A stretch of 64,000 nucleotides of DNA from Campylobacteraceae bacterium (GTDB lineage Bacteria; Campylobacterota; Campylobacteria; Campylobacterales; Sulfurovaceae), in assembly GCA_027063105.1 (NCBI GenBank), contig JAMOSL010000028.1:2886-66885 (forward strand), read 5' to 3'. The position numbers and the translations under genes are program-made. The notes under the pieces were generated by a model that searched no databases, was not told where the DNA came from, and saw only the letters and a program-made list of their open reading frames with translations. Below are positions 12,293 to 43,489 of this stretch, one piece after another. Position 1 is the stretch's first letter, and every line of letters begins with the position of its first letter.

Positions 12293-12293
12293 A

Positions 12294-14605: not shown

Positions 14606-14614
14606 TGTACCTCC

Positions 14615-15844: not shown

Positions 15845-15853
15845 ATTCTCTCC

Positions 15854-16645: not shown

Positions 16646-16646
16646 A

Positions 16647-27795: not shown

Positions 27796-28167
27796 TTATT
27801 TAGGTTTTTTAGTACCATATTTAGAACGAGCAACTCTTCTGTTTGCAACACCTGAAGTATCTAATGCACCACGAACTATGTGATACTTAACACCAGGTAA
27901 ATCTTTTACTCTTCCGCCTCTTACTAGAACGATTGAGTGTTCTTGAAGGTTATGACCTTCACCACCAATATATGAAATTACTTCAAATCCACTAGTCAAT
28001 CTAACTTTAGCTACTTTTCTTAAAGCTGAGTTAGGTTTTTTAGGTGTAGTTGTATATACTCGTGTACATACTCCTCTTCTTTGTGGACAGCTTACTAAAG
28101 CTGGTGATTTTGATTTTTTAATCACTCTTTTTCGTTCTTTACGAATTAACTGATTTATAGTTGGCAA
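27796..28167 (-). CDS. rpsL: 30S ribosomal protein S12
   Basis: 123 aa, [13 protein letters not shown]...[11 protein letters not shown]. Confidence 0.97.
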
Positions 28168-28209
28168 ATCGTCTCCTTTTTTATGTATGGTAAATTAAAA
28201 TAGTCAAAC

Positions 28210-28215
28210 ATTATA
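28210..28215 (-). promoter_or_regulatory. Candidate -10 box (TATAAT) of the str operon
   Basis: The minus strand reads tttacTATAATg, 43 nt upstream of the rpsL ATG and 8 nt after the stop of the preceding glycosyltransferase gene. Confidence 0.35.
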
Positions 28216-28222
28216 GTAAAAC

Positions 28223-28990
28223 TTACTTCATTTTAACTGAATACTTTAGTATTTCAAGTAGAAAAAGTGGTGTAGATATGAAGTTTCGTCTCCATAATCT
28301 TCTAGGCTCTTTGAAAAATCTAGGTAGCCACTCTAAGTGCATATTAATCCAAAAATTAGATGGCCTCACAATTTTATTAGCATAAAAATCAAATACAGCA
28401 CCTATAGATGAGGCAATTTTGAAATTTAATTTATCTCTATTCTTATATAACCATTTCTCCTGTTTAGGTGCAGTCATTCCAATAAAAAGAACATCAGGAG
28501 TAAATCTATTAATTCGTTCTATAATCTCACTATTTTCATTTTCTGAAAAAGTATCTTTAAATGGAGGAGAGTAACTATCTATTCTTATATTTGGATATTC
28601 TTTAAATATTTTTTGTTTTATAATATTCAATGTATCTTGAGATGCACCCATATAAAATACTTTACCATTAATATTATTTAATAATTCTAATAAATGTTGA
28701 TGTAAATTAGCACCAGCTATCTTTTTTATTTTTTTATTTTTTAATATTTTAGATGCTAGGATAATTCCACTTCCATCAGGTAGTAAAGTATCAGAATTAT
28801 TCAAAGCTTTATAAAAAACCTCATCATCTTTAGCCACCACAAAAGAGTGTGGATTAATGGTATTAATAATCTGCTTTTTATCATTTAATTTTATACTTGA
28901 TAGGTTATCAGTAAAAACTGAATATCCCATAATATCTATATTTTTATACATTATGACTCTCTTTAAATATGTTAAGAAAATTCTTTTCAA
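28223..28990 (-). CDS. WecG/TagA/CpsF-family glycosyltransferase (GT26)
   Basis: 255 aa with family-typical ...INTINPHSF..A..D..F...LN..D.LLPDGSGI... and GMTAPKQEKW. The true start may be Met14 (28951). Confidence 0.8.
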   Translation of the reverse strand: MKRIFLTYLKRVIMYKNIDIMGYSVFTDNLSSIKLNDKKQIINTINPHSFVVAKDDEVFYKALNNSDTLLPDGSGIILASKILKNKKIKKIAGANLHQHLLELLNNINGKVFYMGASQDTLNIIKQKIFKEYPNIRIDSYSPPFKDTFSENENSEIIERINRFTPDVLFIGMTAPKQEKWLYKNRDKLNFKIASSIGAVFDFYANKIVRPSNFWINMHLEWLPRFFKEPRRLWRRNFISTPLFLLEILKYSVKMK

Positions 28991-30044
28991 ATTTTCTTAG
29001 TGTAAAATGATTTAAATATCTATCTCTACAATATATAGAAGTTTCTCTATTTAATAAAGTATTAACAGCTTGATTCAAAGCATTTTCCAGATTATCCAAA
29101 TTATTTAAAATAATTCCACTTTTGTTATCTAAAATATATGGAATTGAACCTTCATCTGTAGATATGATAGGTATTCCATAAGATAAAGCTTCTAAAATAG
29201 TTAATGGAAAAGCTTCATTTTTATATCTTGTTGGAAACATAAATATATCACTTTTTTTAAATAAATCACTCTTCTCTTTTCCATTTATAAAACCATAAAA
29301 AACTACTTTTTTAGATAAATCATTTTCTTCTAAATATCTAAAAAATTCCTCCTTATCATCATCATCTTGCCAACCACCAGCAAAATGATAATATATCCCT
29401 CTATCTTTAGTTTTATTTGCTAATTCTAAAACAGAAAAATAGCCCTTAGACTTTATCATATTTGATAAATATAGTATATCAACTCTATCTTTTTTAACAA
29501 ATTCTATATTATTTAGAATATTTTCTACACCATTTGGAAGATAATATACTTTATCAAAAGATTTAATCTTATTGAAATCAGAAAATAATATTGGGCTAAG
29601 AAGTATTAAATTAACATTTTTTATAAAAAAAGAGGTGAGTTTTAGATTTCTTTCTGAAGATGATACAAAATTATTAATTCCTTTTGTATGATAATGGTAA
29701 TATATATTTACATTTTTAAATAATCTATAGATTTTCCATAATGATGATACAACTAAATCTCTATAAAATGCAACACCACTAATAGATGCTGTAAAATATA
29801 TTTTATTAGGACGAAAAGATATTAAAGCCCATAGAATTTTAATATATAGCTCTATAACCAAATATATCTTTTTAATACTAATTTTACCAATATCACTTAT
29901 AGTATCAGATGATTTAATAGTTATATAATAACAGTCGAATTCTTCATTTATATTTTGACTAGATGATATAAAATCTCCAACTTTAGATGCTCCATGAGCT
30001 GGTGGTGAGCGATGAAGAATGGATAATAATTTAATTTTTTGCAT
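28944..30044 (-). CDS. Glycosyltransferase family 1 (GT4-type)
   Basis: 366 aa with the C-terminal EAFPLTILEALSYGIPIISTDEGSIPYIL (E-x7-E region). Confidence 0.75.
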   Translation of the reverse strand: MQKIKLLSILHRSPPAHGASKVGDFISSSQNINEEFDCYYITIKSSDTISDIGKISIKKIYLVIELYIKILWALISFRPNKIYFTASISGVAFYRDLVVSSLWKIYRLFKNVNIYYHYHTKGINNFVSSSERNLKLTSFFIKNVNLILLSPILFSDFNKIKSFDKVYYLPNGVENILNNIEFVKKDRVDILYLSNMIKSKGYFSVLELANKTKDRGIYYHFAGGWQDDDDKEEFFRYLEENDLSKKVVFYGFINGKEKSDLFKKSDIFMFPTRYKNEAFPLTILEALSYGIPIISTDEGSIPYILDNKSGIILNNLDNLENALNQAVNTLLNRETSIYCRDRYLNHFTLRKFEKNFLNIFKESHNV

Positions 30045-31047
30045 ATTTTGTTCCTAATATATGTAATAATTTTTTTTCAAACAGATAACTACTATTATTT
30101 ATACTTTTTAATATAATCTCTTTAATTAAAAATAGTTGTAGTATATTTAGTATATTATTATCAATTTGTGATAATATATAATCAATTAAATCAACATTAT
30201 CTAATTTATTTAATAATTTACCAACCATATAATGATATTTTATTAAATCAAAATATTCAATTCCATCTTCTATAAAATACTCAAAATCAAATATTGTATA
30301 TTCTTCTTTATTTTTTATGATATTCCAAGGTGTAAAGTCACCATGTTCATATACTAGATTATACTTCTGTCTTGATATATTTATAATAGAATTAGTAACA
30401 TCAAGATATTCTTTTAAATTAATATCTTCTTTTAAACTTCCTAATATACTATTAATTCTAGGATGTTCAGATAATGAGTATTTGCTATTTCTACCTCTAC
30501 TAAAATCAGATAATATATTCTTTAATTTTGAGCTTGATATATTATCAATAATACCATTTAAAGGTTTTAAAATTATAAATGGTATTTCGTTAAAAGTTGA
30601 ATATAAAAGATACTCTTTAGATAAAATATCCATAGCATTCTTTTCATTTTTGATATGCTCTATACCTGTATTAGTAATAGGATATTTTAAGTAAGCAATA
30701 ACTCTATACTTCTTATCTTGAAGTTGAAGTACAACTTTATCTCTATCTGTTGCCAAATAGATTGATGATATTAAATTTTGATTTAATTTTTTTTCTAAAA
30801 AGTTTATAAACTTAGATTTCTCATATAAATTTGTTTTATATAAAACTCTACTAAATATATTGAGTTTACTAAATAAAAAATTTAAAAAAAATTTAAAAAA
30901 TTTACCATTCTTAGAAAAAGGATTATATAGATTAAAAGAGTTACTTGCTATTTGATTATTATCAATAGCTAAAAGTAATTTGGGATTATTTTTTGTTGGA
31001 ATAGATACATATCTATTTGATGAGGTAAAAAAATTAATATCTATCAC
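30031..31047 (-). CDS. Choline/ethanolamine-kinase or APH-fold small-molecule kinase (LicA-like)
   Basis: 338 aa. The catalytic-loop-like YEHGDFTPWNII and the IFDFEYF motif match the ChoK/APH HxDxxxxN and IDxEY signatures. Confidence 0.6.
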   Translation of the reverse strand: MIDINFFTSSNRYVSIPTKNNPKLLLAIDNNQIASNSFNLYNPFSKNGKFFKFFLNFLFSKLNIFSRVLYKTNLYEKSKFINFLEKKLNQNLISSIYLATDRDKVVLQLQDKKYRVIAYLKYPITNTGIEHIKNEKNAMDILSKEYLLYSTFNEIPFIILKPLNGIIDNISSSKLKNILSDFSRGRNSKYSLSEHPRINSILGSLKEDINLKEYLDVTNSIINISRQKYNLVYEHGDFTPWNIIKNKEEYTIFDFEYFIEDGIEYFDLIKYHYMVGKLLNKLDNVDLIDYILSQIDNNILNILQLFLIKEIILKSINNSSYLFEKKLLHILGTKYAKN

Positions 31048-31808
31048 TATTTAATCTTTATTTTAACTATGGTAAAAACTATCAATCTAAAAATATAAGA
31101 AAATATATTTTCAATGGTAGATAATCCTGCATATTTTCTAGCTATATATCCCTCTCTTAACCTCTTAAAGAAAGGCATATTTCCACTAATTCCACCTAGC
31201 CTAAAATTAGTTAGAGGTTTATTTATATAATAAAATTTATTTTTATCCTTTAATAAAGATTTAAGTACAAATTGATAATCTGCATGAGATGCCAAATTAA
31301 TATTATATATATGCTCTTTATACTCTTCATCTGAAATAAACATGGTTGGATGGCTAAATGTCATAGAGTAATATTTAAACTTTAATATAGAAGGATTGTA
31401 ATTAAATCTTCTTCTCTCTTTACTCTCTAAAATATCATATCTATCTCCATGGAATATAGATTTATTGGGATTTTCTTGATATGCTTTAACAACCATTTCT
31501 ATCGTATTAAATTCATACCAATCATCACTATTAACCATACCGATTAATTTACCTTTGGCTAACTTAATACCTTTATTCATAGCATCATAGAGACCTTTAT
31601 CTTCTTCACTAATCCAATAATTAATTATATCTCTATTATCTTTAATAATATCTATAGTTTTATCTGTTGAGCCACCATCTATAATTATATATTCAATATT
31701 TTGATAACTTTGTTCTTTTATACTATTTATAGTCTGCTGTAAATACTTTTCACCATTATATACAACTGTAATAATGCTTACTAATATATTATCTCTTTTC
31801 AAATTCAT
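31047..31808 (-). CDS. Glycosyltransferase family 2
   Basis: 253 aa with VSIITVVYNGEKYL...IIIDGGSTD...NSDD (DxD-type). Confidence 0.85.
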   Translation of the reverse strand: MNLKRDNILVSIITVVYNGEKYLQQTINSIKEQSYQNIEYIIIDGGSTDKTIDIIKDNRDIINYWISEEDKGLYDAMNKGIKLAKGKLIGMVNSDDWYEFNTIEMVVKAYQENPNKSIFHGDRYDILESKERRRFNYNPSILKFKYYSMTFSHPTMFISDEEYKEHIYNINLASHADYQFVLKSLLKDKNKFYYINKPLTNFRLGGISGNMPFFKRLREGYIARKYAGLSTIENIFSYIFRLIVFTIVKIKIK

Positions 31809-33051
31809 ATCCTTTTTTTATTTTTATTAAAAGATCACTGTTTTTTAATTTTCTATTTTTAGTAGATACAATAGTTCCTGCTGCCATCCATAATAATAGA
31901 AATTCAGCAGAATATATTGCATAAGAATTAATCATCCATAGCAATAAATATATTACAATATAATATCCACAAGCCCTAGTAATAATATTTCTTGAAGCAA
32001 AAATACCTAAATAGGCTGCCGGAAGTAAGATTAAGAGATGCAATGCCATCATTATAATTCCACCTTTCAATATCATTTGGAGATATCCAACTTCATTGGC
32101 CATTCTATTTGGATTATCACCACCTAATCCATGTCTACGAGTATATTCAAAATATGGACTATAATATGTACCTGATGCACCTTTTCCTATAATTAATTGA
32201 TAAGGTTCTAAATCAGCAAATAATTCAACAAATAAAAATGTTCTTGTATCTGTTTGTGCATCTTCATCACCTTCAACTTTTTCTATCATTTTATCTACTT
32301 GTGAAAGTAGCAACATCATAAATATTAATATTCCAAATAAAACGGATATTTTTTTATACATTCCTACCTCCTTCTGTCTATAAAACTCAAATATCATAAA
32401 TGATATAATCATTAATATTAGCCCTAAATTTGCTCTTTGCCCAGAAAATATAGAATTTATTATAAACGCTAAAAGAGTTATATATGCTATTCGTTTATTT
32501 CGTTTATTATGATACATAGATGTCATAAATAAAATAGGTAAGAATACCATGTCTTTTGATATTCCAAAAATAAAATTCATACTATAAAATGGACTGCCTA
32601 ATGTTAATATAGAACCAATTAAAGATAGTGTTGATATAAAATCGAAAATCATTATCCAATTAAATATATTAAATCCAAATACAACCGCTAATGGACTCAT
32701 CCATGCCCAACCAATTAAAAAGTGCCCAAAAACTGTAATAAATGCTTGTGGATTTAAAGACAATGCTCTAAAAACTGTAATAAAACACCAACTAATTAAT
32801 AAAAAAAACATCACTTTAAAATAAGTATTTGTATCAAAATTTTTAAAAGCTATTTTGAAAAAGAATATTAATAATAGAATACTAGATAAATTCATAAATA
32901 ACATGCTAATTAATCTTATTATTCCACTTCCACCACCTGTAGCATTAAATATAAAAGCATTAATCATTGAACCAAACAGAATTATTTTAAGAGCTTGAAT
33001 CCTATTTATTTTTAGCATAAAATCTTTTTTTGAGAAAACTAATAATATCAA
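31789..33051 (-). CDS. O-antigen polymerase/ligase-family membrane protein (Wzy-like)
   Basis: 420 aa with about 10-11 TM helices and one large loop (EGDEDAQTDTR...RHGLGGDNPNR). It lies in the glycan operon. The start is uncertain. Confidence 0.55.
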   Translation of the reverse strand: MILLVFSKKDFMLKINRIQALKIILFGSMINAFIFNATGGGSGIIRLISMLFMNLSSILLLIFFFKIAFKNFDTNTYFKVMFFLLISWCFITVFRALSLNPQAFITVFGHFLIGWAWMSPLAVVFGFNIFNWIMIFDFISTLSLIGSILTLGSPFYSMNFIFGISKDMVFLPILFMTSMYHNKRNKRIAYITLLAFIINSIFSGQRANLGLILMIISFMIFEFYRQKEVGMYKKISVLFGILIFMMLLLSQVDKMIEKVEGDEDAQTDTRTFLFVELFADLEPYQLIIGKGASGTYYSPYFEYTRRHGLGGDNPNRMANEVGYLQMILKGGIIMMALHLLILLPAAYLGIFASRNIITRACGYYIVIYLLLWMINSYAIYSAEFLLLWMAAGTIVSTKNRKLKNSDLLIKIKKGYEFEKR

Positions 33052-33649
33052 AAATAGGTCTTATATTATTCTTCAAAAAGTTTTTAATAATTAAATATAT
33101 ATTTGGATTACATGCATGTGCATCTTTTATTGGAACTCTCCAATTCGCTCCATAATGTTTTATAAGATATTTCTCTGATTCCTTAGGAATTTTAAATTTA
33201 CTATCCATAAAATTATAATCTACAATATCTATTAAATATTTCTCTTTTAACCTTTCATTTCCAAACTCTCTATATCCAAATAATTTTTTTCTAAATATAT
33301 ATATATCTATATACTCACCATTACGAATTAAGCTTAAAATATCATCTGCATATCGACCTATTGTAAAATTATTGTTTAAAAAAATATTTAAAATATTTAA
33401 AAAATCGTCTCTATCTTCATCTAAGATAGCTACATCTATGTCTTCATCATGGGTTATAAAATCATTTTCTCTAATAGCTCCGAGGAGTGTTCCATAAGCT
33501 AAGGTAAAAATAATATTATGACTATCCATTATTTTTTGAAATTCTAATAAATTATCTTGTGCTATCTTTTTATCTATAAATTTTGAGCCTAATATAAATT
33601 TATAGGGTTCAAAATTTATATTTCCTTTATTTGTTTTAATAATTTGCAT
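33002..33649 (-). CDS. LicD-family phospho-headgroup transferase
   Basis: 215 aa. YGTLLGAIRENDFITHDEDIDVAI matches the LicD signature (GTLLGA.R...FIPWDDD.D). Confidence 0.8.
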   Translation of the reverse strand: MQIIKTNKGNINFEPYKFILGSKFIDKKIAQDNLLEFQKIMDSHNIIFTLAYGTLLGAIRENDFITHDEDIDVAILDEDRDDFLNILNIFLNNNFTIGRYADDILSLIRNGEYIDIYIFRKKLFGYREFGNERLKEKYLIDIVDYNFMDSKFKIPKESEKYLIKHYGANWRVPIKDAHACNPNIYLIIKNFLKNNIRPIFDIISFLKKRFYAKNK

Positions 33650-35454
33650 TATATATCTTTTAGTTTCTCTATCATAAATTCATTATCATTAAAATCTTTT
33701 ACTGCAATTCTGATATATTCTTTGTTCTCAAATCCAATTTTCCCTGTTAAGTCTTTTATATACAAATCATATCTATCTAATAATATCTCTGTAAGTTCTA
33801 AAGCTGAAAATTTACTATTTACCTCTATTAAAAAGTAGTTTGCTTGAGAATATATAACGCTAAGATAATCTATCTCTTTTAATCTATTATAGAATCTATC
33901 TCTCTCATTTGCAATAACATCACAAGCTTTTGTATAATCTTTTTTATATTTACCTATTGTCTGTAAAAAGAATTCACCATAAGAATTTATATTCCAAATA
34001 GTTAATTCTTCCTCTATTTTATTCATAATTTCTTCATTGCTTGTAGCTAATATACCAAGTCTAACACCAGGTACACCATAACTTTTTGAGATACTTTTTA
34101 TTATTATAAGATTTGAATAATTATCTAAAATATTTTGTTCCAACATACTCTCATCTTCGCCATTAGTCGAAAAATCTACAAATGATTCATCTAATATAAT
34201 ATTCTTATTCATATCTTTTAATTTTGATACTAAAATAATTAAATCATTTTTTGAAATGAAGTTTCCACTAGGATTATCTGGATTTATAAGTAGTAAATTA
34301 TCTGATATTTTTGCTAACTCTAACATATTATTTAGATCATAAGAAAACTCTTTGTTCTCTGGTATAAATTTAACAATTCGATCGTATCCTAAACTTTCTG
34401 GATATTCGTTAAATGTTGGAAATGCTAATCCAAATGTTCCATCTATAACATCGCCTAATCCTCGAATAATTTCAGATGCACCATTACCTACTATAATATT
34501 TTCACTCTCAATTCCAAACATTTTTCCAGCTAAAAGCCTTTGTGTCTCTTGTCCTGATGGATATTGAGATATAAGTTCATAAAAATAAGCTTTCATCTCT
34601 TCTTGCATCTTTTGTGTTGGAAAGTAAGGATTAACTAAATAGCAAAAGTCTTTTAATTCAGGAAATCTCCAATATCCACCATATCTGGCTTGAATAAGTT
34701 TTAATTTTTCTTTTGCATTTGGTGCAAATATAATTTCTGAATTAGCCTTATCTTGAATATCATCTATCTCATACCACTTTTCACCATTTAATCTCTTTGC
34801 TCTCAATTCATGTCCATCTAAAATAGTTAGAACTCTAAGAACAGATTCATAATATTCATTATCTCCCATAGCTTTTGAGTAAGCTTCTAAAAATGGAATA
34901 TATATTTTATTACTAAATTCTTTTGAAAATTTATATATATTTACTGTTTTATAATAGTTATTTACATCTTGAAATCGAAAGGTCTTTTTAGGTAAAAAAT
35001 TTATTATATTATCTTCATCATCTAGTGTTACAGAAGTTCCATCCATCCAAGCTTCATATTTATCTACAATTGCTAAAGATTTTCTTTCATCCTCTACTAA
35101 ATCTTGTAATATTTTTTTATCAAATATAATATCACTTTCTAATAAAATAGTATCGTCTTCTGCTAATTTATCCCTTGCGAGAAATAGAGAATATATATTA
35201 TTTGTTTTATCATATATTGGATTTTCTACATACTCTATCTCTACATCTTTATATCTGTCTCCAATATGAGAAATTAGATTATCTTTTTTGTATCCAACAA
35301 CTAAAATAAGTTTTTTTATTCCTACGCTATTTATATTCTCTAGTGCTTGTTTAATTAATGTTTCTCCATTAACCTCTAACATACATTTTGTATTCTCTTT
35401 TGTATGTTTACCTAACCTACTTCCTGTTCCTGCTGCGAGCATTAGACCCTGCAT
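33649..35454 (-). CDS. Bifunctional LicC-like nucleotidyltransferase / class I-II aminotransferase-fold PLP enzyme
   Basis: 601 aa. The N-terminal LMLAAGTGSRLG is a sugar/phospho-base nucleotidyltransferase loop. The C-terminal NPDNPSG and SISKSYGVPGVRLG are the PLP-lysine motif of the HisC/CobD fold. Confidence 0.8.
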   Translation of the reverse strand: MQGLMLAAGTGSRLGKHTKENTKCMLEVNGETLIKQALENINSVGIKKLILVVGYKKDNLISHIGDRYKDVEIEYVENPIYDKTNNIYSLFLARDKLAEDDTILLESDIIFDKKILQDLVEDERKSLAIVDKYEAWMDGTSVTLDDEDNIINFLPKKTFRFQDVNNYYKTVNIYKFSKEFSNKIYIPFLEAYSKAMGDNEYYESVLRVLTILDGHELRAKRLNGEKWYEIDDIQDKANSEIIFAPNAKEKLKLIQARYGGYWRFPELKDFCYLVNPYFPTQKMQEEMKAYFYELISQYPSGQETQRLLAGKMFGIESENIIVGNGASEIIRGLGDVIDGTFGLAFPTFNEYPESLGYDRIVKFIPENKEFSYDLNNMLELAKISDNLLLINPDNPSGNFISKNDLIILVSKLKDMNKNIILDESFVDFSTNGEDESMLEQNILDNYSNLIIIKSISKSYGVPGVRLGILATSNEEIMNKIEEELTIWNINSYGEFFLQTIGKYKKDYTKACDVIANERDRFYNRLKEIDYLSVIYSQANYFLIEVNSKFSALELTEILLDRYDLYIKDLTGKIGFENKEYIRIAVKDFNDNEFMIEKLKDI

Positions 35455-35455
35455 T

Positions 35456-36703
35456 TTATCTCCTTTTCCAGAGTAATTTCTCTCTGTTTATGTAATATCC
35501 CCGAAATAGCAGTCCTGACAACTCATATATAACAATAGAGAATGCCACCATATATATATCATTAAATAATATAGAACTTATGCTAATAGCTATTAAATAT
35601 ATAAAAGATGCATAAATTAAACTATTATTTGCGTATTTTATATGTCCAAATCCAGCTAATAATGGATAACCAACTAATGCACTCATAATTCCAAATATAG
35701 AACCACTAAATACAATAATAAATAATTTTGACAACATTATATCTTCTACATTAAAAACTAACAATAGTAATTCTTTATTGAAATACATTGTTGGTATTAA
35801 TATTATTATAGATAATAGTATTATAGATAAAAAAATCTTTTTAAAAAATCTAATATCTTTTGTTCTGCTCATATAAGGATAAATTGTTTGAGATACTACT
35901 CCACCTAAGCTCATAAAAGCAAAAAAAAGCTTTTCAACCATAGAATAATATCCAACTGCTATATTTCCAAAATATATTCCTATTATAGCTGTAGCATAAT
36001 ATCTACTACCATTATTAGCAACTCTGGATAAAAAGAAATGATAACTATCTACAAATTGTTTTTTTAATATATCAAATTTTGGAATTTTAAATTTAATATC
36101 AAATAATTTATTTATAAGAAATAAAGAGTATATTCCTCCCAAAATTGCCCCTAATGAATTTAAAATAGGAACAAATATATAATCATTTTCATCTTTTACA
36201 AAAACAAAAATTAAAACCGTAAATATGACTCTAAATGAAACATTTATATATGTAATATATTTCATTCTTTCCATTCCTTGAAAAAACCAAGTAGGGAATA
36301 AAACCGTTCCTAATACTATACCAAATGTCATATAATATAATAATGCATTTTTGCTAAAACTTTCTATAAAAAAGATTAGAAAAAATAATATCAAAAACGA
36401 TAAAATAAACAGAATCGTTTGTATTATAATGACTGAAGAAAAAATTTCTGTAACTTTTTGATGATTATCTCTATTTATAGAGAGTTCTCTGGTTGCAGAC
36501 AAACTAAATCCAAAACTAACTATGATAGTAAAAAACATAACAATAGATAATGCAAAATTAATTAATCCAAAATTCTCAACACCTAAAACTCTAACAAGAT
36601 ATGGTAAAGTTATAAGTGGCAGTATCATATTAATTCCTTGCAACGCAGAAAGTGAAAAAAAGTTTGATAGGAGTCTTTTTTTATCTTCTGTAAGTTTTAA
36701 CAT
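35456..36703 (-). CDS. wzx: Wzx-type polysaccharide flippase (MOP superfamily)
   Basis: 415 aa with about 12 TM helices and the N-terminal FFSLSALQGINMILPLITLPYLVRVLG signature of O-unit flippases. Confidence 0.8.
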   Translation of the reverse strand: MLKLTEDKKRLLSNFFSLSALQGINMILPLITLPYLVRVLGVENFGLINFALSIVMFFTIIVSFGFSLSATRELSINRDNHQKVTEIFSSVIIIQTILFILSFLILFFLIFFIESFSKNALLYYMTFGIVLGTVLFPTWFFQGMERMKYITYINVSFRVIFTVLIFVFVKDENDYIFVPILNSLGAILGGIYSLFLINKLFDIKFKIPKFDILKKQFVDSYHFFLSRVANNGSRYYATAIIGIYFGNIAVGYYSMVEKLFFAFMSLGGVVSQTIYPYMSRTKDIRFFKKIFLSIILLSIIILIPTMYFNKELLLLVFNVEDIMLSKLFIIVFSGSIFGIMSALVGYPLLAGFGHIKYANNSLIYASFIYLIAISISSILFNDIYMVAFSIVIYELSGLLFRGYYINREKLLWKRR

Positions 36704-36706
36704 AAA

Positions 36707-37798
36707 TTAATTATTCTTTTTAATATACCAGTTGTATAGCTTTTCAATTCCATCACTAAGTTCAACAGTATGTTTCCAACCTAAATTATTTAGTTTTGTT
36801 ACATCTGTAAGCTTTTTCATTGTTCCATCAGGTTTATCTGTATTAAAATATAACTTACCATTAAATCCAATAGTATCCTTTATTGTATATGCTAACTCTT
36901 TAATGCTTATATCAATACCTGTACCTATGTTAATATGAGTATTTCTAACCTCTTTTTCATTTTCTGGATAGGTATCTTTAAAATCTCTATTCTCCATTAA
37001 GAAAACACAAGCATCTGCCATATCTAAACTCCAAAGAAATTCTCTTCGTGGTAACCCACTACCCCAAATTTCTATCTGAAGCTTATTATTTGAACAATGT
37101 ACACCATAACTATCTAATTTAGCAATAATATCCTCTTTAGAACTATTACCATCTATATCTTCAATAGGTAGAGAATTTAAATCAGCTCTAATATCCACCC
37201 AATTATCATCTTCTAACGCTTTACCTAAATGTATTTTTCTAATTAATGCAGGTAGTACATGACTCTTTACTAAATCAAAATTATCATTTGGTCCATAGAG
37301 ATTAGTAGGCATTACAGATATAAAATTTGTACCATATTGTAAATTATAACTTTCACACATCTTAATTCCTGCAATTTTTGCAACAGCATAAGGCTCATTT
37401 GTATACTCTAATGGAGAAGTTAATAATACATTCTCATTCATAGGCTGAGGTGCTTCTTTAGGATATATACAAGTGCTTCCTAAATATAAAAGTTTTTCAA
37501 CACCATTAAGATAACTTTGGTGAATAATATTATTTTGAACTTGAATATTTTCATATATAAATTCTGCACGATATATATTGTTTGCAATAATACCACCAAC
37601 TTTAGCTGCTGCTAAAATAACAAATTCTGGCTTTTCTTCTTTGAAGAATTTAGAAACAGCATAACTGTCTAATAAATCTAACTCTTTATGGGTTCTGCCA
37701 ATAATATTATTATAGCCCTTCGATTTTAAGTTTGCTACAATTGCACTACCAACTAATCCATTATGACCAGCTACATATATTTTTGAATTTAAATTCAC
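36707..37798 (-). CDS. fcl: GDP-L-fucose synthase (GDP-4-keto-6-deoxymannose 3,5-epimerase/4-reductase)
   Basis: 363 aa with a GTG start, KIYVAGHNGLVGSAI, the YAVAKIAG catalytic YxxxK, and PTNLYGPNDNF. Confidence 0.88.
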   Translation of the reverse strand: MNLNSKIYVAGHNGLVGSAIVANLKSKGYNNIIGRTHKELDLLDSYAVSKFFKEEKPEFVILAAAKVGGIIANNIYRAEFIYENIQVQNNIIHQSYLNGVEKLLYLGSTCIYPKEAPQPMNENVLLTSPLEYTNEPYAVAKIAGIKMCESYNLQYGTNFISVMPTNLYGPNDNFDLVKSHVLPALIRKIHLGKALEDDNWVDIRADLNSLPIEDIDGNSSKEDIIAKLDSYGVHCSNNKLQIEIWGSGLPRREFLWSLDMADACVFLMENRDFKDTYPENEKEVRNTHINIGTGIDISIKELAYTIKDTIGFNGKLYFNTDKPDGTMKKLTDVTKLNNLGWKHTVELSDGIEKLYNWYIKKNN

Positions 37799-37863
37799 TA
37801 AAGACCTTTTTAATAAAGTTTATCATAAATCAATAATATCACTATTTATCTTATAATAAAATT
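37784..37863. repeat. Direct repeat copy A (first 15 nt of fcl plus its upstream region)
   Basis: 80 nt that aligns with 38477-38560 at roughly 80-85% identity with two small indels (hand alignment). Confidence 0.85.
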
Positions 37864-37866
37864 ATA

Positions 37867-38376
37867 TCATATATTCATACTTATAATTTTTGCAGGATTA
37901 CCTGCTACTATAGTATTTACTGCTACATCTTTTATTACAACTGAACCAGCACCAATAATAGAGTTATCCCCTATCTTAATATTACCTATGATTACACTGT
38001 TTGGAGCTATTATAACATTATCTCCGATTATTGGAGAACCTAGATTATTGCCATCTTTATCCATTTTATTACCTATTGTTGTATTATGTTTTAAAGTTAC
38101 ATTATTCCCTATAACAACATCAGCATTTAAAACTGTACCTCTGCCATGATGTATAATTAAGCCTCTTCCTATTTTTGTTGAAGCTGGTATTTCACAGCCT
38201 AAGACTATATCAGTAATAAATTTATATATAATAATTATAGGTGCAAAAAGTATGTATAAGAATCTATTAGTCATTCTTTTACGAAAATATCTCATAATAG
38301 TATATGATATCACTATTATTTTACCTTTTATATTTTTATTATTTTTATTATCTTCTATAATATTATTTATTAACAT
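37867..38376 (-). CDS. Hexapeptide-repeat O-acetyltransferase (CysE/WcaB-like)
   Basis: 169 aa with left-handed beta-helix repeats (IGRGLIIHHGRGTVLNADVVIGNNVTL...IGDNVIIAPNSVIIGNIKIGDNSIIGAGSVV). Confidence 0.8.
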   Translation of the reverse strand: MLINNIIEDNKNNKNIKGKIIVISYTIMRYFRKRMTNRFLYILFAPIIIIYKFITDIVLGCEIPASTKIGRGLIIHHGRGTVLNADVVIGNNVTLKHNTTIGNKMDKDGNNLGSPIIGDNVIIAPNSVIIGNIKIGDNSIIGAGSVVIKDVAVNTIVAGNPAKIISMNI

Positions 38377-38377
38377 C

Positions 38378-38410
38378 TGTATTTCCTCTCATATCCTATT
38401 AATCCACCTT
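38378..38410 (-). pseudogene. Remnant of the 3' end of the ACC-deaminase/DcyD-family gene
   Basis: 18 + 15 nt identical to 40940-40957 and 40979-40993 (the C-terminal codons of the gene at 40935-41816), with a 21-nt internal deletion. It ends exactly at the acetyltransferase ATG. Confidence 0.75.
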
Positions 38411-38491
38411 TAAACTTTAACAAGCAGCTCAAATAATAAACTTAGGTTTCTCTTCTGTAAGAAATCTAACTCTTTATGAATTTGAATTCAC
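38411..38491 (-). pseudogene. Degraded 5' fragment of a second fcl allele
   Basis: The minus strand reads GTGAATTCAAATTCA, then TAAAGAGTTAGATTT, then agaagagaaacctaagtttattatttgagctgcttgttaaagtt. These align with fcl codons 1-5, about 37-42 and about 53-67, with two internal deletions and an in-frame TAA. Confidence 0.7.
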
Positions 38492-38560
38492 TAAAGACCT
38501 TTTAATAAAGTTTATTATAATTATGATATATAATATCAGTACTTATCTTATAGGAGAATT
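38477..38560. repeat. Direct repeat copy B (fcl 5' remnant plus upstream region, now the 5' leader of the MBOAT gene)
   Basis: 84 nt homologous to 37784-37863. It ends in taggagaatt-ATG, which provides the AGGAG ribosome-binding site of the MBOAT gene. Confidence 0.85.
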
Positions 38561-40006
38561 ATGTTATTTAATAGCTATGAGTTTATTTTTATATTTTTGC
38601 CAGTATCTTTTTTGATATATTTTTATCTAAATTATAAAAAATTTATAATTTTATCCAAGGGTTGGCTGATCTTATCATCACTCTTTTTTTATAGTTGGTG
38701 GAATATTATATATTTACCACTTATTTTAATATCTATGTTATTTAATTATTATATTGGTTCAAAATTATCAAAGGATAATAATAAATTTATATTATCTTTT
38801 GGAATAATAATGAATCTATTATTACTGTTCTATTTTAAATATTTTGATTTTTTTCTAGTAAATATAAATATATTATTTCATTTAGATTATGAATTAATAA
38901 ATTTAGCACTACCTCTAGCTATATCATTTTTTACATTTCAACAAATAGCTTATTTAATAGATAGTTATAAACAAGAAACAAAAGAATATGACTTCTTGAA
39001 TTATTCACTTTTTGTCACATTCTTTCCTCAATTAATAGCTGGTCCAATAGTTCATCATAAGGAAATGATGCCACAATTTTCTAAGTTAAATAATAAATTC
39101 ATAAATTATAAGAATATATCAATGGGAATTTTTATATTTTCTATTGGACTATTTAAAAAAGTTATTATTGCTGATACATTTGCTAAATATGCTAACTATG
39201 GATTTAATACATCTCAACCATTAGATTTATTAGAATCATGGATTACTAGTTTATCATATACATTTCAGTTATATTTTGATTTTAGTGGTTATACAGATAT
39301 GGCTATTGGATTAGCTCTTTTATTCAATATTATTCTACCTATAAACTTTAATAGTCCATACAAGGCTTTAAATATTCAAGATTTTTGGAGAAGATGGCAT
39401 ATTACACTTAGTAGATTTTTAAAAGATTATTTATATATTCCATTAGGGGGGAATAGGTATGGAGATATAAGAACTTATTCTAATTTACTAATAACTTTTA
39501 TATTAGCAGGAGTATGGCATGGAGCTGGTTGGACATTTATTTTTTGGGGCTTTCTACATGGTATTGCATTAATAATACATAGAGTATGGAGTAAAGTTTT
39601 AAGATTTAGTATCTCAAAAGTATTTGCATGGTTTATAACTTTTAACTTTATAAATATAGCTTGGGTATTTTTTAGAGCAAATGAATGGAATGATGCTATT
39701 AGAATTTTAAGTGGAATGATTGGATTAAACGGAATACATCTTCCAAGTTTCTTTACTTCAAAGTTATCATTTTTACAACAATATTATAATATAGAATTTA
39801 GTAATTTTTTATCTAATATTCACGGAGACTTAACTATACTAGTATTTTTACCTATAGCGTTTATAATTACTATATTTTTTAATAATTCTATATCATATTT
39901 AAATAAAAACTATACAACTATTCATGCATTCTTTATATCTTTTATTTTGATTATTTCTATATATTCTTTAGGCAATAAATCTGAATTTTTATACTTCAAT
40001 TTTTAA
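38561..40006 (+). CDS. MBOAT-family membrane O-acyltransferase (AlgI/DltB-like)
   Basis: 481 aa, polytopic. It has FWRRWHITLSRFLKDYLYIPLGGNR and the conserved His in VWHGAGW. Confidence 0.88.
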   Translation: MLFNSYEFIFIFLPVSFLIYFYLNYKKFIILSKGWLILSSLFFYSWWNIIYLPLILISMLFNYYIGSKLSKDNNKFILSFGIIMNLLLLFYFKYFDFFLVNINILFHLDYELINLALPLAISFFTFQQIAYLIDSYKQETKEYDFLNYSLFVTFFPQLIAGPIVHHKEMMPQFSKLNNKFINYKNISMGIFIFSIGLFKKVIIADTFAKYANYGFNTSQPLDLLESWITSLSYTFQLYFDFSGYTDMAIGLALLFNIILPINFNSPYKALNIQDFWRRWHITLSRFLKDYLYIPLGGNRYGDIRTYSNLLITFILAGVWHGAGWTFIFWGFLHGIALIIHRVWSKVLRFSISKVFAWFITFNFINIAWVFFRANEWNDAIRILSGMIGLNGIHLPSFFTSKLSFLQQYYNIEFSNFLSNIHGDLTILVFLPIAFIITIFFNNSISYLNKNYTTIHAFFISFILIISIYSLGNKSEFLYFNF

Positions 40007-40014
40007 GGACAATT

Positions 40015-42871: not shown

Positions 42872-42882
42872 TAATTTTCCTT

Positions 42883-43488: not shown

Positions 43489-43489
43489 A

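What the first reader, a model, noticed from the sequence alone, without database searches (positions are those of the whole stretch)
30031..35454. Lic-like phospho-headgroup decoration module with a nucleotidyltransferase-PLP enzyme fusion
**Seen.** Three genes within a few kb of one operon resemble the LicA, LicC and LicD components:
- A ChoK/APH-fold kinase (EHGDFTPWNI, IFDFEYF).
- A 601-aa protein with a LicC-like nucleotidyltransferase N-terminus (LMLAAGTGSRLG). Its C-terminal half is a class I/II aminotransferase-fold PLP domain (NPDNPSG; SISKSYGVPGVRLG).
- A LicD-family transferase (YGTLLGAIRENDFITHDEDIDV).

**Established.**
- LicA, LicC and LicD attach phosphocholine to glycans via CDP-choline.
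- The HisC/CobD fold includes L-threonine-O-3-phosphate decarboxylase.
- LicC-like enzymes fused or adjacent to aminotransferases also activate 2-aminoethylphosphonate.

**Inference.** The headgroup is probably not choline. It is more likely an amino-alcohol phosphate made in situ. One route would be kinase acting on Ser or Thr, followed by PLP decarboxylation to phosphoethanolamine or aminopropanol phosphate, or by transamination of a keto-phosphate. The product would then be CDP/CMP-activated and transferred by LicD onto the Wzx/Wzy repeat unit. No PEP mutase is present in the window, which argues against the phosphonate route unless that gene lies elsewhere.
Basis: partly seen in the sequence, partly recalled or inferred. 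Interest (0 to 1): 0.65.

Follow-up and report, generated by a model that had tools for sequence, protein, structure and literature searches.

The report
Serine-phosphate-to-CDP-ethanolamine enzyme with LicD transferase
A surface-sugar operon carries a widespread but apparently unstudied two-in-one enzyme that most likely makes activated phosphoethanolamine from phosphoserine, which a partner LicD transferase then attaches to the cell-surface polysaccharide; the neighbouring kinase is not part of this route.

Summary
The sequence observation is correct. On the minus strand of one tight Wzx-type glycan operon lie a continuous 601-aa fusion of a LicC/PntC-like cytidylyltransferase with a CobD-like PLP domain (33649-35454), a LicD gene whose start overlaps the fusion's stop (33002-33649), and an APH/ChoK-fold kinase (30031-31047).

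The fusion is not an artefact. Full-length ~600-aa homologues occur across Campylobacterota, Bacteroidales, Clostridia and Coriobacteriia.

- **Module.** The conserved module is the fusion plus LicD: a LicD gene lies within 6 kb in 67 of 80 genome loci.
- **Kinase.** It never accompanies the fusion (0 of 80 loci). Its own homologues sit in kinase-GT4-WecG blocks that lack the fusion, so it belongs to the glycan backbone genes.
- **PLP domain.** It keeps every catalytic residue. Its closest characterised relative is the L-serine-phosphate decarboxylase SmCobD, and it shares decarboxylase-type motifs that HisC lacks.
- **Relatives.** Some are fused or adjacent to N-methyltransferases, a GNAT or a TagF-like transferase.
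- **Phosphonate route.** No PEP mutase is nearby.

Best reading: phosphoserine is decarboxylated to phosphoethanolamine, activated to CDP-ethanolamine, and transferred by LicD. No biochemistry exists and the substrate is inferred. This is a new variant of the Lic/Pnt logic, of moderate to good interest.

The parts
33649..35454 (-). 601-aa bifunctional gene: N-terminal LicC/PntC-like cytidylyltransferase fused to a C-terminal CobD-like PLP enzyme
   Evidence: A continuous ORF with one terminal stop. It hits PF12804/PF00483 and PF00155. Full-length homologues are widespread. The AlphaFold model has pLDDT 82. Its best Foldseek hits are the PntC-AEPT fusion 6pd1/6pd2, then SmCobD 6oux, then SeCobD.
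34720..35454 (-). Cytidylyltransferase domain (aa 1-245), with the G-x-G-x-R loop LAAGTGSRLG, the NNIYS motif, LLESD (Glu106) and NEYYE
   Evidence: Best PDB sequence hits are Tde-PntC 6pd1 (59 bits) and then LicC 1jyk (48 bits). Glu106 aligns with Tde-PntC Glu104, a ligand of the primary amine of AEP; LicC has Asp at this position. The motifs are invariant in 42 homologues.
33652..34692 (-). CobD-like PLP domain (aa 255-601). Key residues: YGGYW N-terminal arm, GNGASE, Asn394, Asp422-Glu-Ser-Phe425, Lys457 (Schiff base, codon 34084-34086), Arg465, Lys567, Arg582
   Evidence: Best PDB hit is 6oux, the SmCobD L-Ser-P decarboxylase (157 bits). Next come 3ftb (101), 3fkd (87), HisC 8bj1 (80) and SeCobD (74). 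TIGR01140 CobD scores 148 bits and TIGR01141 HisC scores 135 bits, both below their cut-offs. Residue mapping is from the alignment. The DE[SA]F and GNG..E motifs are present in 79 of 79 fusions.
33002..33649 (-). LicD-family phosphotransferase (215 aa), whose start overlaps the fusion's stop
   Evidence: PF04991 scores 45 bits against a cut-off of 22.6. NCBIfam Mf1 cholinephosphotransferase scores 81 bits, below its cut-off. The junction reads TAATG. A LicD-family gene lies immediately downstream of the fusion in 48 loci and within 6 kb in 67 of 80 loci.
35456..36703 (-). Wzx-type flippase, immediately upstream of the fusion
   Evidence: PF01943 scores 179 bits. It is 81-89% identical to Wzx in the syntenic loci L085 and L087.
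31789..33051 (-). Hydrophobic 420-aa protein, a Wzy-like polymerase candidate by position only
   Evidence: No Pfam or NCBIfam hit. Orthologues at 47-80% identity hold the same position in L085-L087. The assignment rests on position only.
31047..31808 (-). GT2 glycosyltransferase
   Evidence: PF00535 scores 104 bits.
30031..31047 (-). APH/ChoK-fold small-molecule kinase. It belongs to the backbone glycosyltransferase block, not to the headgroup module
   Evidence: Model pLDDT is 95. Foldseek matches APH, ChoK and FN3K with TM 0.45-0.52. Catalytic residues are invariant. The conserved context is kinase-GT4-(GT4)-WecG without the fusion. It is absent from all 80 fusion loci.
28944..30044 (-). 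GT4 glycosyltransferase, always downstream of the kinase
   Evidence: PF00534 scores 84 bits.
28223..28990 (-). WecG/TagA-family glycosyltransferase, the last gene of the operon before rpsL
   Evidence: PF03808 scores 169 bits.
36707..38376 (-). First two genes of the operon: a WcaB-like hexapeptide acetyltransferase (37867-38376) and a GDP-L-fucose synthase (36707-37798)
   Evidence: NF047922 Fcl scores 434 bits. WcaB scores 105-110 bits, below its cut-off.

Best explanation
The 601-aa protein is a bifunctional CDP-ethanolamine synthase.

1. Its C-terminal CobD-like PLP domain decarboxylates L-serine O-phosphate, a central metabolite of serine biosynthesis, to phosphoethanolamine.
2. Its N-terminal LicC/PntC-like domain condenses the phosphoethanolamine with CTP to give CDP-ethanolamine.
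3. The LicD-family enzyme, whose start overlaps the fusion's stop, transfers phosphoethanolamine from CDP-ethanolamine onto a sugar hydroxyl of the undecaprenyl-linked repeat unit on the cytoplasmic face.
4. Wzx then flips the unit. The result is a zwitterionic phosphodiester decoration of the O-antigen or capsule.

The neighbouring APH-fold kinase is a separate component of the backbone GT2-kinase-GT4-WecG block. It probably acts on a sugar or on the lipid-linked glycan.

**Shown:** domain families, intact catalytic residues, the fusion-LicD linkage, and the independence of the kinase.
**Inferred:** decarboxylase rather than transaminase chemistry, Ser-P as substrate, CTP as nucleotide, and the acceptor.
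For: - **PLP domain placement.** Its nearest characterised relative is SmCobD/SMUL_1544 (157 bits, 33.5% identity over 331 aligned positions). NCBI names that protein norcobamide serine-O-phosphate decarboxylase. An unbootstrapped neighbour-joining tree places the fusion clade sister to the SmCobD-like clade. Both lie inside the CobD group and outside HisC.
- **Catalytic residues.** Lys457, Asp422, Asn394, Arg465 and Arg582 align with the corresponding SeCobD and HisC residues.
- **Decarboxylase-type motifs.** GNG-x-[ST]-E and DE[SA]F (Phe where both HisC sequences have Tyr) are shared with SeCobD and SmCobD. They are present in 79 of 79 fusions and 118 of 120 SmCobD-like proteins.
- **N-terminal domain.** It is closer to the primary-amine-specific PntC than to LicC. 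It carries Glu106 at the PntC Glu104 position, where LicC has Asp. The whole protein's best structural match is the PntC-AEPT fusion.
- **LicD linkage.** A LicD-family gene lies within 6 kb in 67 of 80 loci and immediately downstream in 48. In the window the two genes share a TAATG overlap.
- **No kinase needed.** No kinase of the window's family lies near the fusion in 80 loci, and no other kinase appeared among the recurrent neighbour clusters. This fits a substrate drawn from central metabolism.
- **Amine-tailoring partners.**
  - A SAM methyltransferase follows the fusion in L004-L006.
  - Triple fusions exist: NTP+PLP+methyltransferase and NTP+PLP+GNAT. A TagF-like+PLP fusion also exists.
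  - An unfused PLP-then-NTP pair in L088/L089 sits with a CDP-alcohol phosphatidyltransferase and three methyltransferases. The best solved relative of one of them is a set of phosphoethanolamine N-methyltransferases (4krh, E 7e-10).
- **Precedent.** A LicD-family enzyme, Mf1, transfers phosphoethanolamine from CDP-ethanolamine in vitro (PMC11982090). Cj1436 decarboxylates L-Ser-P to ethanolamine-P for a Campylobacter capsule (PMC11800397).
Against: - No enzyme of the fusion clade has been assayed, and identity to SmCobD is only about a third.
- The domain scores below the curated cut-offs of both CobD (148 bits against 290) and HisC (135 against 277).
- Two positions differ from the solved decarboxylases: the SeCobD HGG motif is YGG, and SeCobD Arg323 is Lys567.
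- Cj1437, a DHAP transaminase, may be from the same PLP family. I could not obtain it or Cj1436, so the transaminase/serinol-P alternative was not tested against its best exemplar.
- The W-x-[IV]-N motif that I first took as decarboxylase-specific is not conserved in the SmCobD-like clade (9 of 120).
- The CDP-alcohol transferase in L088 is closest to PssA-type models at sub-threshold scores, so that operon's chemistry is not settled.
- The two closest genome homologues, L001 and L002, have no LicD nearby and sit among ATP-grasp, Mur-ligase-like and PGA_cap genes.
- The syntenic loci L085 and L086 have LicD without the fusion.
Confidence: 0.58

Rival explanations
1. The architecture and LicD transfer are the same, but the PLP domain is a transaminase like Cj1437. 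It converts dihydroxyacetone phosphate plus glutamate to (S)-serinol phosphate, so the donor is CDP-serinol.
For: DHAP is also a central metabolite and needs no kinase. Cj1437, which may be from the same PLP family, performs this reaction in a Campylobacter capsule pathway (PMC11800397). The HisC model scores almost as high as the CobD model (135 against 148 bits).
Against: The DE[SA]F motif (Phe, not the Tyr of both HisC sequences) and the GNG..E motif group the domain with proven decarboxylases. The nearest characterised relative is a decarboxylase. Association with several N-methyltransferases, one of them PMT-like, fits ethanolamine-to-choline chemistry better than serinol. To my knowledge no CDP-serinol or serinol-phosphate diester glycan has been described.
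Confidence: 0.12
2. The APH-fold kinase phosphorylates L-Thr or L-Ser. The PLP domain decarboxylates the product to (R)-1-aminopropan-2-ol phosphate or to phosphoethanolamine. That is then CDP-activated and transferred by LicD.
For: The kinase is an intact small-molecule kinase in the same operon. Canonical CobD acts on L-Thr-P (1lc5/1lkc rank high in structure search). From memory, and not checked here, Rhodobacter BluE is a non-GHMP L-Thr kinase that works with CobD.
Against: The kinase family is absent from all 80 fusion loci, even at E<=1. Its homologues sit in kinase-GT4-WecG blocks without the fusion, and in three cases without LicD. In the window it is separated from the fusion and LicD by the Wzy-like and GT2 genes. 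The PLP domain is much closer to the Ser-P enzyme (157 bits) than to the Thr-P enzyme (74 bits).
Confidence: 0.1
3. Phosphonate route. The PLP domain transaminates phosphonoacetaldehyde to 2-aminoethylphosphonate, and the N-terminal domain makes CMP-AEP as in the PntC-AEPT fusion. Ppm and Ppd would be encoded elsewhere.
For: The N-terminal domain and the whole-protein model are most similar to Tde1415 PntC-AEPT. PntC systems are also linked to LicD-like transferases (PMC6697681).
Against: No PEP mutase family hit was found in any of the 59 window ORFs of at least 100 aa that were scanned. The EDKxxxxxNS motif is absent from all six frames of the window. In 4020 ORFs of 80 loci it appears only in two LicD proteins, by chance. 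The PLP domain is class I/II CobD-like, not the class V AEPT.
Confidence: 0.04
4. The product is phosphocholine, or a mono- or dimethyl intermediate. Phosphoethanolamine made by the fusion would be N-methylated by a methyltransferase encoded elsewhere, and LicD would transfer phosphocholine.
For: Methyltransferases are fused or adjacent to the fusion in relatives. The syntenic locus L087 has a methyltransferase in the same slot, before LicD. The window's LicD is closest to the Mf1 cholinephosphotransferase model.
Against: No methyltransferase lies in this operon or elsewhere in the window. Fusion of the decarboxylase to the cytidylyltransferase argues for direct use of phosphoethanolamine. The N-terminal domain resembles the sterically restricted PntC more than LicC.
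Confidence: 0.06

Closest known systems
Tde1415 PntC-AEPT fusion of Treponema denticola (PDB 6pd1/6pd2; Rice et al. 2019, PMC6697681)
   Same: The domain order and logic are the same. An N-terminal LicC-like cytidylyltransferase is fused to a C-terminal PLP enzyme that makes the primary-amine substrate, and the system is linked to LicD-like transferases for cell-surface tailoring. It is the best sequence hit for the N-terminal domain and the best structural hit for the whole model. Glu106 matches Glu104.
   Different: The PLP domain here is class I/II CobD-like (PF00155), not a class V AEP transaminase. No ppm or ppd accompanies it (0 of 80 loci). The predicted chemistry is decarboxylation of a phosphate ester, not transamination of a phosphonate.
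SmCobD / SMUL_1544, L-serine O-phosphate decarboxylase of Sulfurospirillum multivorans (PDB 6oux)
   Same: It is the closest characterised relative of the PLP domain (157 bits, 33.5% identity). The two share the catalytic set, GNG-x-T/S-E, DESF and the YL-x-NPY arm. The predicted reaction is the same.
   Different: SmCobD is a stand-alone ~390-aa protein that feeds norcobamide synthesis. Its N-terminal arm reads AGSHSPS where the fusion reads YGGYW. It belongs to a sister clade. Here the product is passed to a fused cytidylyltransferase in a glycan operon.
Campylobacter jejuni HS:2 capsule enzymes Cj1436 (Ser-P decarboxylase), Cj1437 (DHAP transaminase), Cj1438C (amidoligase) and Cj1435 (phosphatase) (PMC11800397)
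   Same: PLP enzymes make ethanolamine-P or serinol-P from central metabolites to decorate a surface polysaccharide in the same phylum.
   Different: There the amine is joined as an amide to glucuronate and the phosphate is then removed. Here the phosphate is kept, CDP-activated and transferred as a phosphodiester. The window has no ATP-grasp ligase or HAD phosphatase. Similarity to Cj1436 and Cj1437 could not be measured.
Lic pathway (LicB/LicA/LicC/LicD) for phosphocholine decoration
   Same: A LicC-type cytidylyltransferase works with a LicD transferase that acts on a glycan. Mf1, a LicD-family enzyme, accepts CDP-ethanolamine (PMC11982090).
   Different: There is no choline permease and no LicA-type step linked to the module. 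The headgroup is made de novo by a PLP enzyme. The cytidylyltransferase is closer to PntC than to LicC.
Eukaryotic Kennedy and serine-decarboxylase/phosphoethanolamine-methyltransferase routes (Pcyt2; plant and Plasmodium SDC plus PMT). Comparison from general knowledge
   Same: Ethanolamine-P is converted to CDP-ethanolamine, with optional N-methylation to the choline series. A PMT-like methyltransferase occurs in the unfused bacterial operon L088.
   Different: Eukaryotes decarboxylate free serine and then phosphorylate it, using a different cytidylyltransferase fold. Here phosphoserine would be decarboxylated directly, and the product goes to a glycan.

Membership tests
LicD family (PF04991) | Match to the family HMM above the curated cut-off, with the acidic DxD-type motif | tested here: met
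   PF04991 scores 45.2 bits against a cut-off of 22.6. The HDEDIDV motif is present.
LicD family (PF04991) | Equivalence to a characterised cholinephosphotransferase (NCBIfam NF045866, Mf1) | tested here: not met
   81 bits against a cut-off of 225. It is a family member but not an equivalog, so donor specificity stays open.
Lic phosphocholine pathway (LicA/B/C/D) | A LicA choline kinase functionally linked to LicC and LicD | tested here: not met
   The kinase has the APH/ChoK fold but hits no choline-kinase HMM. It never co-occurs with the fusion (0 of 80 loci), and it occurs without LicD in L081-L083.
Lic phosphocholine pathway (LicA/B/C/D) | A LicB-type choline permease in the locus | tested here: not met
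   The Pfam scans covered 59 of the 63 window ORFs of at least 100 aa and found no such transporter. The only transporter found is an MFS_1_like protein at 20498-21604, outside the operon.
LicC/PntC-type cytidylyltransferases | Nucleotidyltransferase fold with the G-x-G-x-R loop, and homology extending through the substrate-binding half | tested here: met
   PF12804 and PF00483 exceed their cut-offs. Residues 2-232 align to 6pd1 and residues 3-238 to 1jyk.
LicC/PntC-type cytidylyltransferases | CTP specificity and the identity of the phospho-alcohol substrate | not testable with these tools
   The only indirect cue is Glu106, which matches PntC Glu104 where LicC has Asp.
PntC-AEPT phosphonate tailoring fusions | A C-terminal class V AEP transaminase, with neighbouring ppm and ppd | tested here: not met
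   The C-terminal domain is PF00155, class I/II. No Ppm motif or family was found in the window or in 80 loci.
CobD threonine/serine-phosphate decarboxylases (TIGR01140) | Score above the equivalog cut-off | tested here: not met
   147.8 bits against a cut-off of 290.55. It is the top-scoring model but is not reached.
CobD threonine/serine-phosphate decarboxylases (TIGR01140) | Fold-type I PLP catalytic set (Lys, Asp, Asn, two Arg) plus the GNG..E and DE[AS]F motifs shared by SeCobD and SmCobD | tested here: met
   Lys457, Asp422, Asn394, Arg465, Arg582, GNGASE and DESF are all present.
CobD threonine/serine-phosphate decarboxylases (TIGR01140) | The N-terminal HGG motif and the second substrate-phosphate Arg (SeCobD Arg323) | tested here: not met
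   The fusion has YGG in place of HGG and Lys567 in place of Arg323. Both changes are conserved across the fusions.
CobD threonine/serine-phosphate decarboxylases (TIGR01140) | Cobamide nucleotide-loop gene context | tested here: not met
   The gene sits in a glycan operon, and no cobamide genes occur in the window.
CobD threonine/serine-phosphate decarboxylases (TIGR01140) | Decarboxylase activity on L-Ser-P or L-Thr-P | not testable with these tools
   This needs an enzyme assay.
HisC histidinol-phosphate aminotransferase (TIGR01141) | Score above cut-off, the G-[AS]-D-E and DEAY motifs, and a his-operon context | tested here: not met
   135.4 bits against a cut-off of 276.55. The motifs read GNGASE and DESF instead. 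The context is a glycan operon.
Wzx/Wzy-dependent polysaccharide locus | Wzx flippase, Wzy polymerase and an initiating transferase | tested here: inconclusive
   Wzx is clear (PF01943, 179 bits). The 420-aa membrane protein has no Wzy_C hit. A WecA-like transferase (PF00953) lies about 8 kb away at 19401-20429.

The most novel reading that the evidence does not exclude
The fusion defines a widespread prokaryotic route that makes CDP-ethanolamine directly from phosphoserine. With the methyltransferases that are fused or adjacent in some lineages, it would also make CDP-choline-series donors without imported choline. The donors would feed LicD or TagF-type glycan decoration in gut Bacteroidales, Prevotella, Clostridia and vent Campylobacterota. 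In unfused form they would feed a CDP-alcohol-transferase lipid pathway. That would amount to a bacterial, phosphoserine-based counterpart of the Kennedy pathway.
Probability: 0.4. Interest if true: 0.72.

Novelty: new variant of a known kind. Interest (0 to 1): 0.56.

Why it matters
Phosphoethanolamine and phosphocholine on bacterial glycans shape immune recognition (CRP, pentraxins, natural antibodies), resistance to cationic peptides, and the zwitterionic character linked to immunomodulatory capsules.

The known routes take phosphoethanolamine from membrane phosphatidylethanolamine in the periplasm (EptA-type enzymes), or they depend on imported choline (the Lic pathway). A cytoplasmic, de novo CDP-ethanolamine route from phosphoserine would be a third mechanism.

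It would give a function to a gene family currently labelled only "aminotransferase class I/II-fold PLP-dependent enzyme". That family has 362 clusters (at 50% identity) with E<=1e-30, and most of the 150 best listed are ~600-aa fusions. Many come from human and ruminant gut Bacteroidales and Prevotella.

It would also provide a simple genomic marker, fusion plus LicD, for predicting zwitterionic surface glycans. The methyltransferase-bearing variants make choline-independent phosphocholine decoration a testable idea.

Tried and rejected
- **Kinase as part of the module: rejected.** Three tests failed. phmmer and a family HMM found no kinase in the 80 fusion loci. Six kinase contexts were inspected. 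Synteny was compared with L085 and L087.
- **Phosphonate route: rejected.** Pfam scans of 59 of the 63 window ORFs of at least 100 aa, plus an EDKxxxxxNS motif search, found no PEP mutase.
- **Housekeeping HisC: rejected.** Scores, motifs and context all argue against it.
- **Cj1436 and Cj1437: not obtained.** The key paper, PMC8524856, is not held. Neither protein appeared among the 120 best SmCobD relatives or the cluster names I inspected. The serinol rival therefore stays open.
- **Literature.** Seven full-text searches found no description of this fusion or of a bacterial LicD pathway fed by Ser-P decarboxylation. This covers open-access text only.
- **W-x-[IV]-N motif: dropped.** It is present in SeCobD, SmCobD and the fusions but in only 9 of 120 SmCobD-like proteins.
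- **Promoter scan: uninformative.** In this AT-rich DNA it found 90 sites against 95 expected.
- **Cluster names: uninformative.** Names of stand-alone relatives gave no functional information.
- **L088 CDP-alcohol transferase: not confirmed.** I hoped to show it was a choline/ethanolamine phosphotransferase. NCBIfam places it nearest PssA-type models at sub-threshold scores, so I treat that operon only as supportive.
- **P0270 methyltransferase domain: uninformative.** It gave no informative PDB hit.

Full report
**1. What is in the sequence**

The window is AT-rich. G+C is 22-26% across the glycan locus and about 29-37% in the flanks. It looks like a vent-type Campylobacterota genome, for three reasons:
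- The closest fusion homologues come from Sulfurimonas, Halarcobacter, Nitratifractor and hydrothermal-vent metagenomes.
- A nuo operon lies at 111-17530 and a nap operon at 55269-62532.
- The glycan operon ends just before rpsL, rpsG and fusA.

From 38376 down to 28223 on the minus strand, ten genes are packed with overlaps or gaps of a few bases:

| Coordinates | Gene |
|---|---|
| 37867-38376 | WcaB-like acetyltransferase |
| 36707-37798 | GDP-fucose synthase |
| 35456-36703 | Wzx |
| 33649-35454 | 601-aa fusion |
| 33002-33649 | LicD |
| 31789-33051 | 420-aa hydrophobic protein with no family hit |
| 31047-31808 | GT2 |
| 30031-31047 | 338-aa kinase |
| 28944-30044 | GT4 |
| 28223-28990 | WecG |

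The fusion frame has one stop, at its end. The fusion's TAA overlaps the LicD ATG as TAATG. The Wzx stop lies one base before the fusion's ATG, which has an AAGGAG upstream.

**2. The fusion is a real and common protein**

A protein search returned more than 100 clusters of ~601-aa proteins at 71-93% identity, all with the same two Pfam domains. A scan of species-representative genomes returned 80 loci:
- 70-76% identity in Campylobacterota.
- 47-53% identity in Bacteroides, Prevotella, Hoylesella, Parabacteroides, Tannerellaceae, Clostridia, Butyrivibrio, Faecalicoccus and Coriobacteriaceae.

A search of cluster representatives with the PLP half alone found 362 clusters at E<=1e-30. Most of the best 150 are ~600 aa with the PLP domain starting near residue 255. 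A missed stop or a chimera is excluded.

**3. Which genes travel together**

I extracted ORFs from the 80 loci and clustered them.
- A LicD-family gene lies within 6 kb of the fusion in 67 loci. It is the immediately downstream gene in 48.
- The kinase has no homologue in any of the 80 loci by phmmer. A family HMM also finds none at E<=1.

The kinase's own family has 259 proteins, almost all unnamed. I inspected six of its contexts:
- Hydrogenimonas urashimensis, a Pseudomonadales MAG and a third contig carry kinase-GT4-GT4-WecG, with no fusion and no LicD.
- L085 (kinase 57% identical) is syntenic with the window from Fcl to rpsL/rpsG, but Wzx is followed directly by LicD.
- L087 (kinase 72%, Wzx 89%) has a 213-aa methyltransferase in the slot where the window has the fusion.
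- L086 also has LicD and the kinase without the fusion.

In these syntenic loci LicD is only 49-55% identical to the window's LicD. The flanking Wzx, Wzy-like, GT2 and GT4 genes are 47-89% identical, and 68-89% in L085 and L087. The Wzx-LicD junction therefore behaves as a variable headgroup cassette. The kinase belongs to the conserved backbone block.

The kinase itself is a good APH/ChoK-fold enzyme. The model has pLDDT 95. Foldseek matches APH(2''), APH(3'), choline kinase, FN3K and MTR kinase with TM 0.45-0.52. Lys104, Glu135, HGD..N and DFE are invariant. Its substrate is unknown. Its linkage to GT4 and WecG suggests a sugar or a lipid-linked intermediate; that is inference.

**4. The PLP domain**

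Sequence comparison with solved structures gives these scores:

| PDB entry | Protein | Bits |
|---|---|---|
| 6oux | SMUL_1544/SmCobD | 157 |
| 3ftb | annotated HisC | 101 |
| 3fkd | annotated CobD | 87 |
| 8bj1 | plant HisC | 80 |
| 1lc5 | Salmonella CobD | 74 |

NCBI names the 6oux protein norcobamide serine-O-phosphate decarboxylase. The entry 3ftb groups with SeCobD at 168 bits.

NCBIfam ranks the CobD model first (148 bits) and HisC second (135 bits). Both are far below their cut-offs, so the domain is an equivalog of neither.

In a MAFFT alignment with SeCobD, SmCobD, 3ftb, 3fkd, E. coli HisC and plant HisC:
- The Schiff-base Lys (Lys457), Asp422, Asn394, Arg465 and Arg582 are all in place.
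- GNGASE and DESF match the decarboxylases (GNGETE/DEAF and GNGATE/DESF). Both HisC sequences have G-A-D-E and DEAY.
- These two motifs hold in 79 of 79 fusions and 118 of 120 SmCobD-like proteins.

There are also differences from the solved decarboxylases. The SeCobD HGG motif is YGG(Y/F)W, and Arg323 is Lys567. Both changes are conserved in the fusion family.

A neighbour-joining tree, without support values, puts the fusion clade sister to the SmCobD-like stand-alone clade. Both lie inside the CobD group with HisC outside. The fusion clade in this tree includes the unfused L088 protein and the multi-domain variants. Foldseek on the whole-protein model (pLDDT 82) ranks the PntC-AEPT fusion first, then SmCobD, SeCobD and HisC.

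**5. The cytidylyltransferase domain**

The best sequence hits are Tde-PntC (59 bits, residues 2-232) and pneumococcal LicC (48 bits, residues 3-238). Rice et al. report that PntC binds the primary amine of AEP with Glu104 and Glu196. LicC has the smaller Asp at both positions and a larger pocket for trimethylammonium (PMC6697681). The window protein has Glu106 in LLESD at the Glu104 position, and acidic residues in NEYYE near the second position. That fits a small primary-amine phospho-alcohol.

**6. Rosetta-stone and neighbour evidence for the product**

All of the following partners act on, or use, a CDP-activated amino-alcohol phosphate.

- *Extra fused domains.*
  - P0270 and P0299 add a SAM methyltransferase. 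P0299 has lost the Lys.
  - P0378 adds a GNAT.
  - P0376 adds a GT4.
  - P0241 joins the PLP domain to a TagF-like CDP-alcohol phosphotransferase.
- *Campylobacterota loci L004-L006.* A methyltransferase follows the fusion, ahead of LicD.
- *Thirteen Bacteroidales and Clostridia loci.* An ornithine-cyclodeaminase/mu-crystallin gene lies between the fusion and LicD.
- *Unfused orthologues, L088/L089.*
  - A 371-aa PLP gene (33% identical) is followed, with an overlap, by a 259-aa NTP-transferase gene (35% identical).
  - Next come a methyltransferase and a CDP-alcohol phosphatidyltransferase, with two further methyltransferases nearby.
  - One methyltransferase's best solved relatives are nematode, plant and Plasmodium phosphoethanolamine N-methyltransferases (4krh, E 7e-10).
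  - The CDP-alcohol transferase is nearest PssA-type models at sub-threshold scores.

The multiple N-methyltransferases point to the ethanolamine-to-choline series.

- *SmCobD-like stand-alone clade.* It sits in glycan loci beside CapK-like or ATP-grasp ligases and a HAD phosphatase. That is the Cj1436/Cj1438/Cj1435 logic for amidating uronic acids (PMC11800397).

**7. Mechanism proposed**

1. Phosphoserine is decarboxylated by the PLP domain to phosphoethanolamine.
2. Phosphoethanolamine plus CTP gives CDP-ethanolamine on the N-terminal domain.
3. LicD transfers phosphoethanolamine to the lipid-linked repeat unit.
4. Wzx flips the unit.

Two precedents exist for parts of this scheme. Mf1, a LicD-family enzyme and the closest NCBIfam model to the window's LicD, uses CDP-ethanolamine in vitro (PMC11982090). 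Cj1436 and SmCobD decarboxylate L-Ser-P.

The domain identities, the intact active sites, the fusion-LicD linkage and the independence of the kinase are shown. The substrate, the choice of decarboxylation over transamination, the nucleotide and the acceptor are inferred.

**8. Rivals**

- *Serinol-P by DHAP transamination.* This is the main rival. I could not obtain Cj1437 to place it.
- *The Thr-P/kinase version.* The co-occurrence data and the 157 against 74 bit preference for the Ser-P enzyme weaken it.
- *AEP.* It is disfavoured by the absence of Ppm in the window and in 80 loci and by the PLP class.
- *Methylation to phosphocholine.* It is plausible in relatives, but no methyltransferase is present in this window.

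**9. Caveats**

- The two closest genome homologues, L001 and L002, lack LicD and sit among ATP-grasp, Mur-ligase-like and PGA_cap genes. The family's product evidently has more than one use.
- L085 and L086 show that this short LicD subfamily can work without an adjacent fusion.
- The tree has no support values.
- The literature check covers open-access text only.

**10. Verdict**

- The module is a new variant of the Lic/Pnt headgroup-activation logic. It is built on a common but, as far as I could find, uncharacterised enzyme family.
- Interest is moderate to good.

Noticed in passing
L088:8001-13815 and L089 (same coordinates): Unfused orthologues of both halves of the fusion form an operon in a 58% G+C organism. 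A 371-aa PLP gene overlaps a 259-aa NTP-transferase gene. A CDP-alcohol phosphatidyltransferase and three SAM methyltransferases accompany them. The best PDB hits of one methyltransferase are phosphoethanolamine N-methyltransferases. This may be a bacterial PE/PC headgroup pathway.
   Followed up: partly
P0270, P0299, P0378, P0376, P0241 (representative search): Multi-domain variants of the family exist: NTP+PLP+SAM-methyltransferase, NTP+PLP+GNAT, GT4+NTP+PLP, and TagF-like+PLP. P0299 seems to have lost the Schiff-base Lys (LSVTHG) and the GNG motif.
   Followed up: partly
L085:1324-3221, L087:272-1558, window 33002-36703: The slot between Wzx and LicD varies among otherwise syntenic loci. 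It holds the fusion in the window, a 213-aa methyltransferase in L087, and nothing in L085. LicD is much more diverged (49-55%) than its neighbours, as expected for a swappable serotype cassette.
   Followed up: partly
L009, L012, L019, L026, L028, L031, L038, L048, L060, L077-L080 (e.g. L012:11809-12750): In 13 loci an ornithine-cyclodeaminase/mu-crystallin-family gene sits between the fusion and LicD. It may modify the amine further, for example into an opine-type carboxyethyl derivative, but its role is unexplained.
   Followed up: no
L001 and L002 (e.g. L002:4769-14355): The two closest genome homologues of the fusion (74-75% identity, Sulfurimonas and Halarcobacter) have no LicD. They are flanked by ATP-grasp proteins, a Mur-ligase-like protein, a PGA_cap protein and a BaxI-like membrane protein. 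This suggests a different use of the product.
   Followed up: partly
L090:5662-10149 (Aliarcobacter butzleri), L091:7001-9808 (Pedobacter), L092:6144-8873: Stand-alone proteins about 50% identical to SmCobD are common outside cobamide contexts. They lie in glycan loci beside CapK-like or ATP-grasp ligases and a HAD phosphatase, or between two methyltransferases. The norcobamide enzyme therefore looks like a recruit from glycan-decoration chemistry.
   Followed up: partly
L081:8755-10014, L083:8043-9368, L086:13908-15194: A ~420-440-aa protein with weak thymidylate-kinase or P-loop hits recurs near the kinase-GT4-WecG block. The window has no counterpart.
   Followed up: no
PDB 3fkd and 3ftb (alignments): The Porphyromonas gingivalis protein deposited as CobD (3fkd) aligns a His where the Schiff-base Lys should be (SFSHAYG). 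The Clostridium acetobutylicum protein deposited as HisC (3ftb) groups with Salmonella CobD (168 bits) and has the HGG motif.
   Followed up: no
window 38561-40938 (+): An MBOAT-family O-acyltransferase (481 aa) and an adjacent 307-aa protein with no family hit are transcribed divergently from the glycan operon. They may O-acylate the same polymer.
   Followed up: no
window 19401-20429 (-): A WecA/MraY-family polyprenyl-phosphate sugar-phosphate transferase (PF00953) lies about 8 kb from the operon, beyond fusA, rpsG, rpsL, engA and thyX. It is a candidate initiating enzyme for the WecG-containing pathway.
   Followed up: no
window 7590-14303 (-): The nuo operon has two tandem NuoG-like ORFs (818 and 747 aa). 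It also has a 669-aa protein that combines a NuoF-type 4Fe-4S region with a GltD/pyridine-nucleotide-disulphide-oxidoreductase domain, in place of standard NuoE/F.
   Followed up: no
window 28000-44000: G+C falls to 22-26% across the glycan locus from about 29-37% in the flanks. This is typical of a variable, horizontally exchanged surface-polysaccharide region.
   Followed up: no
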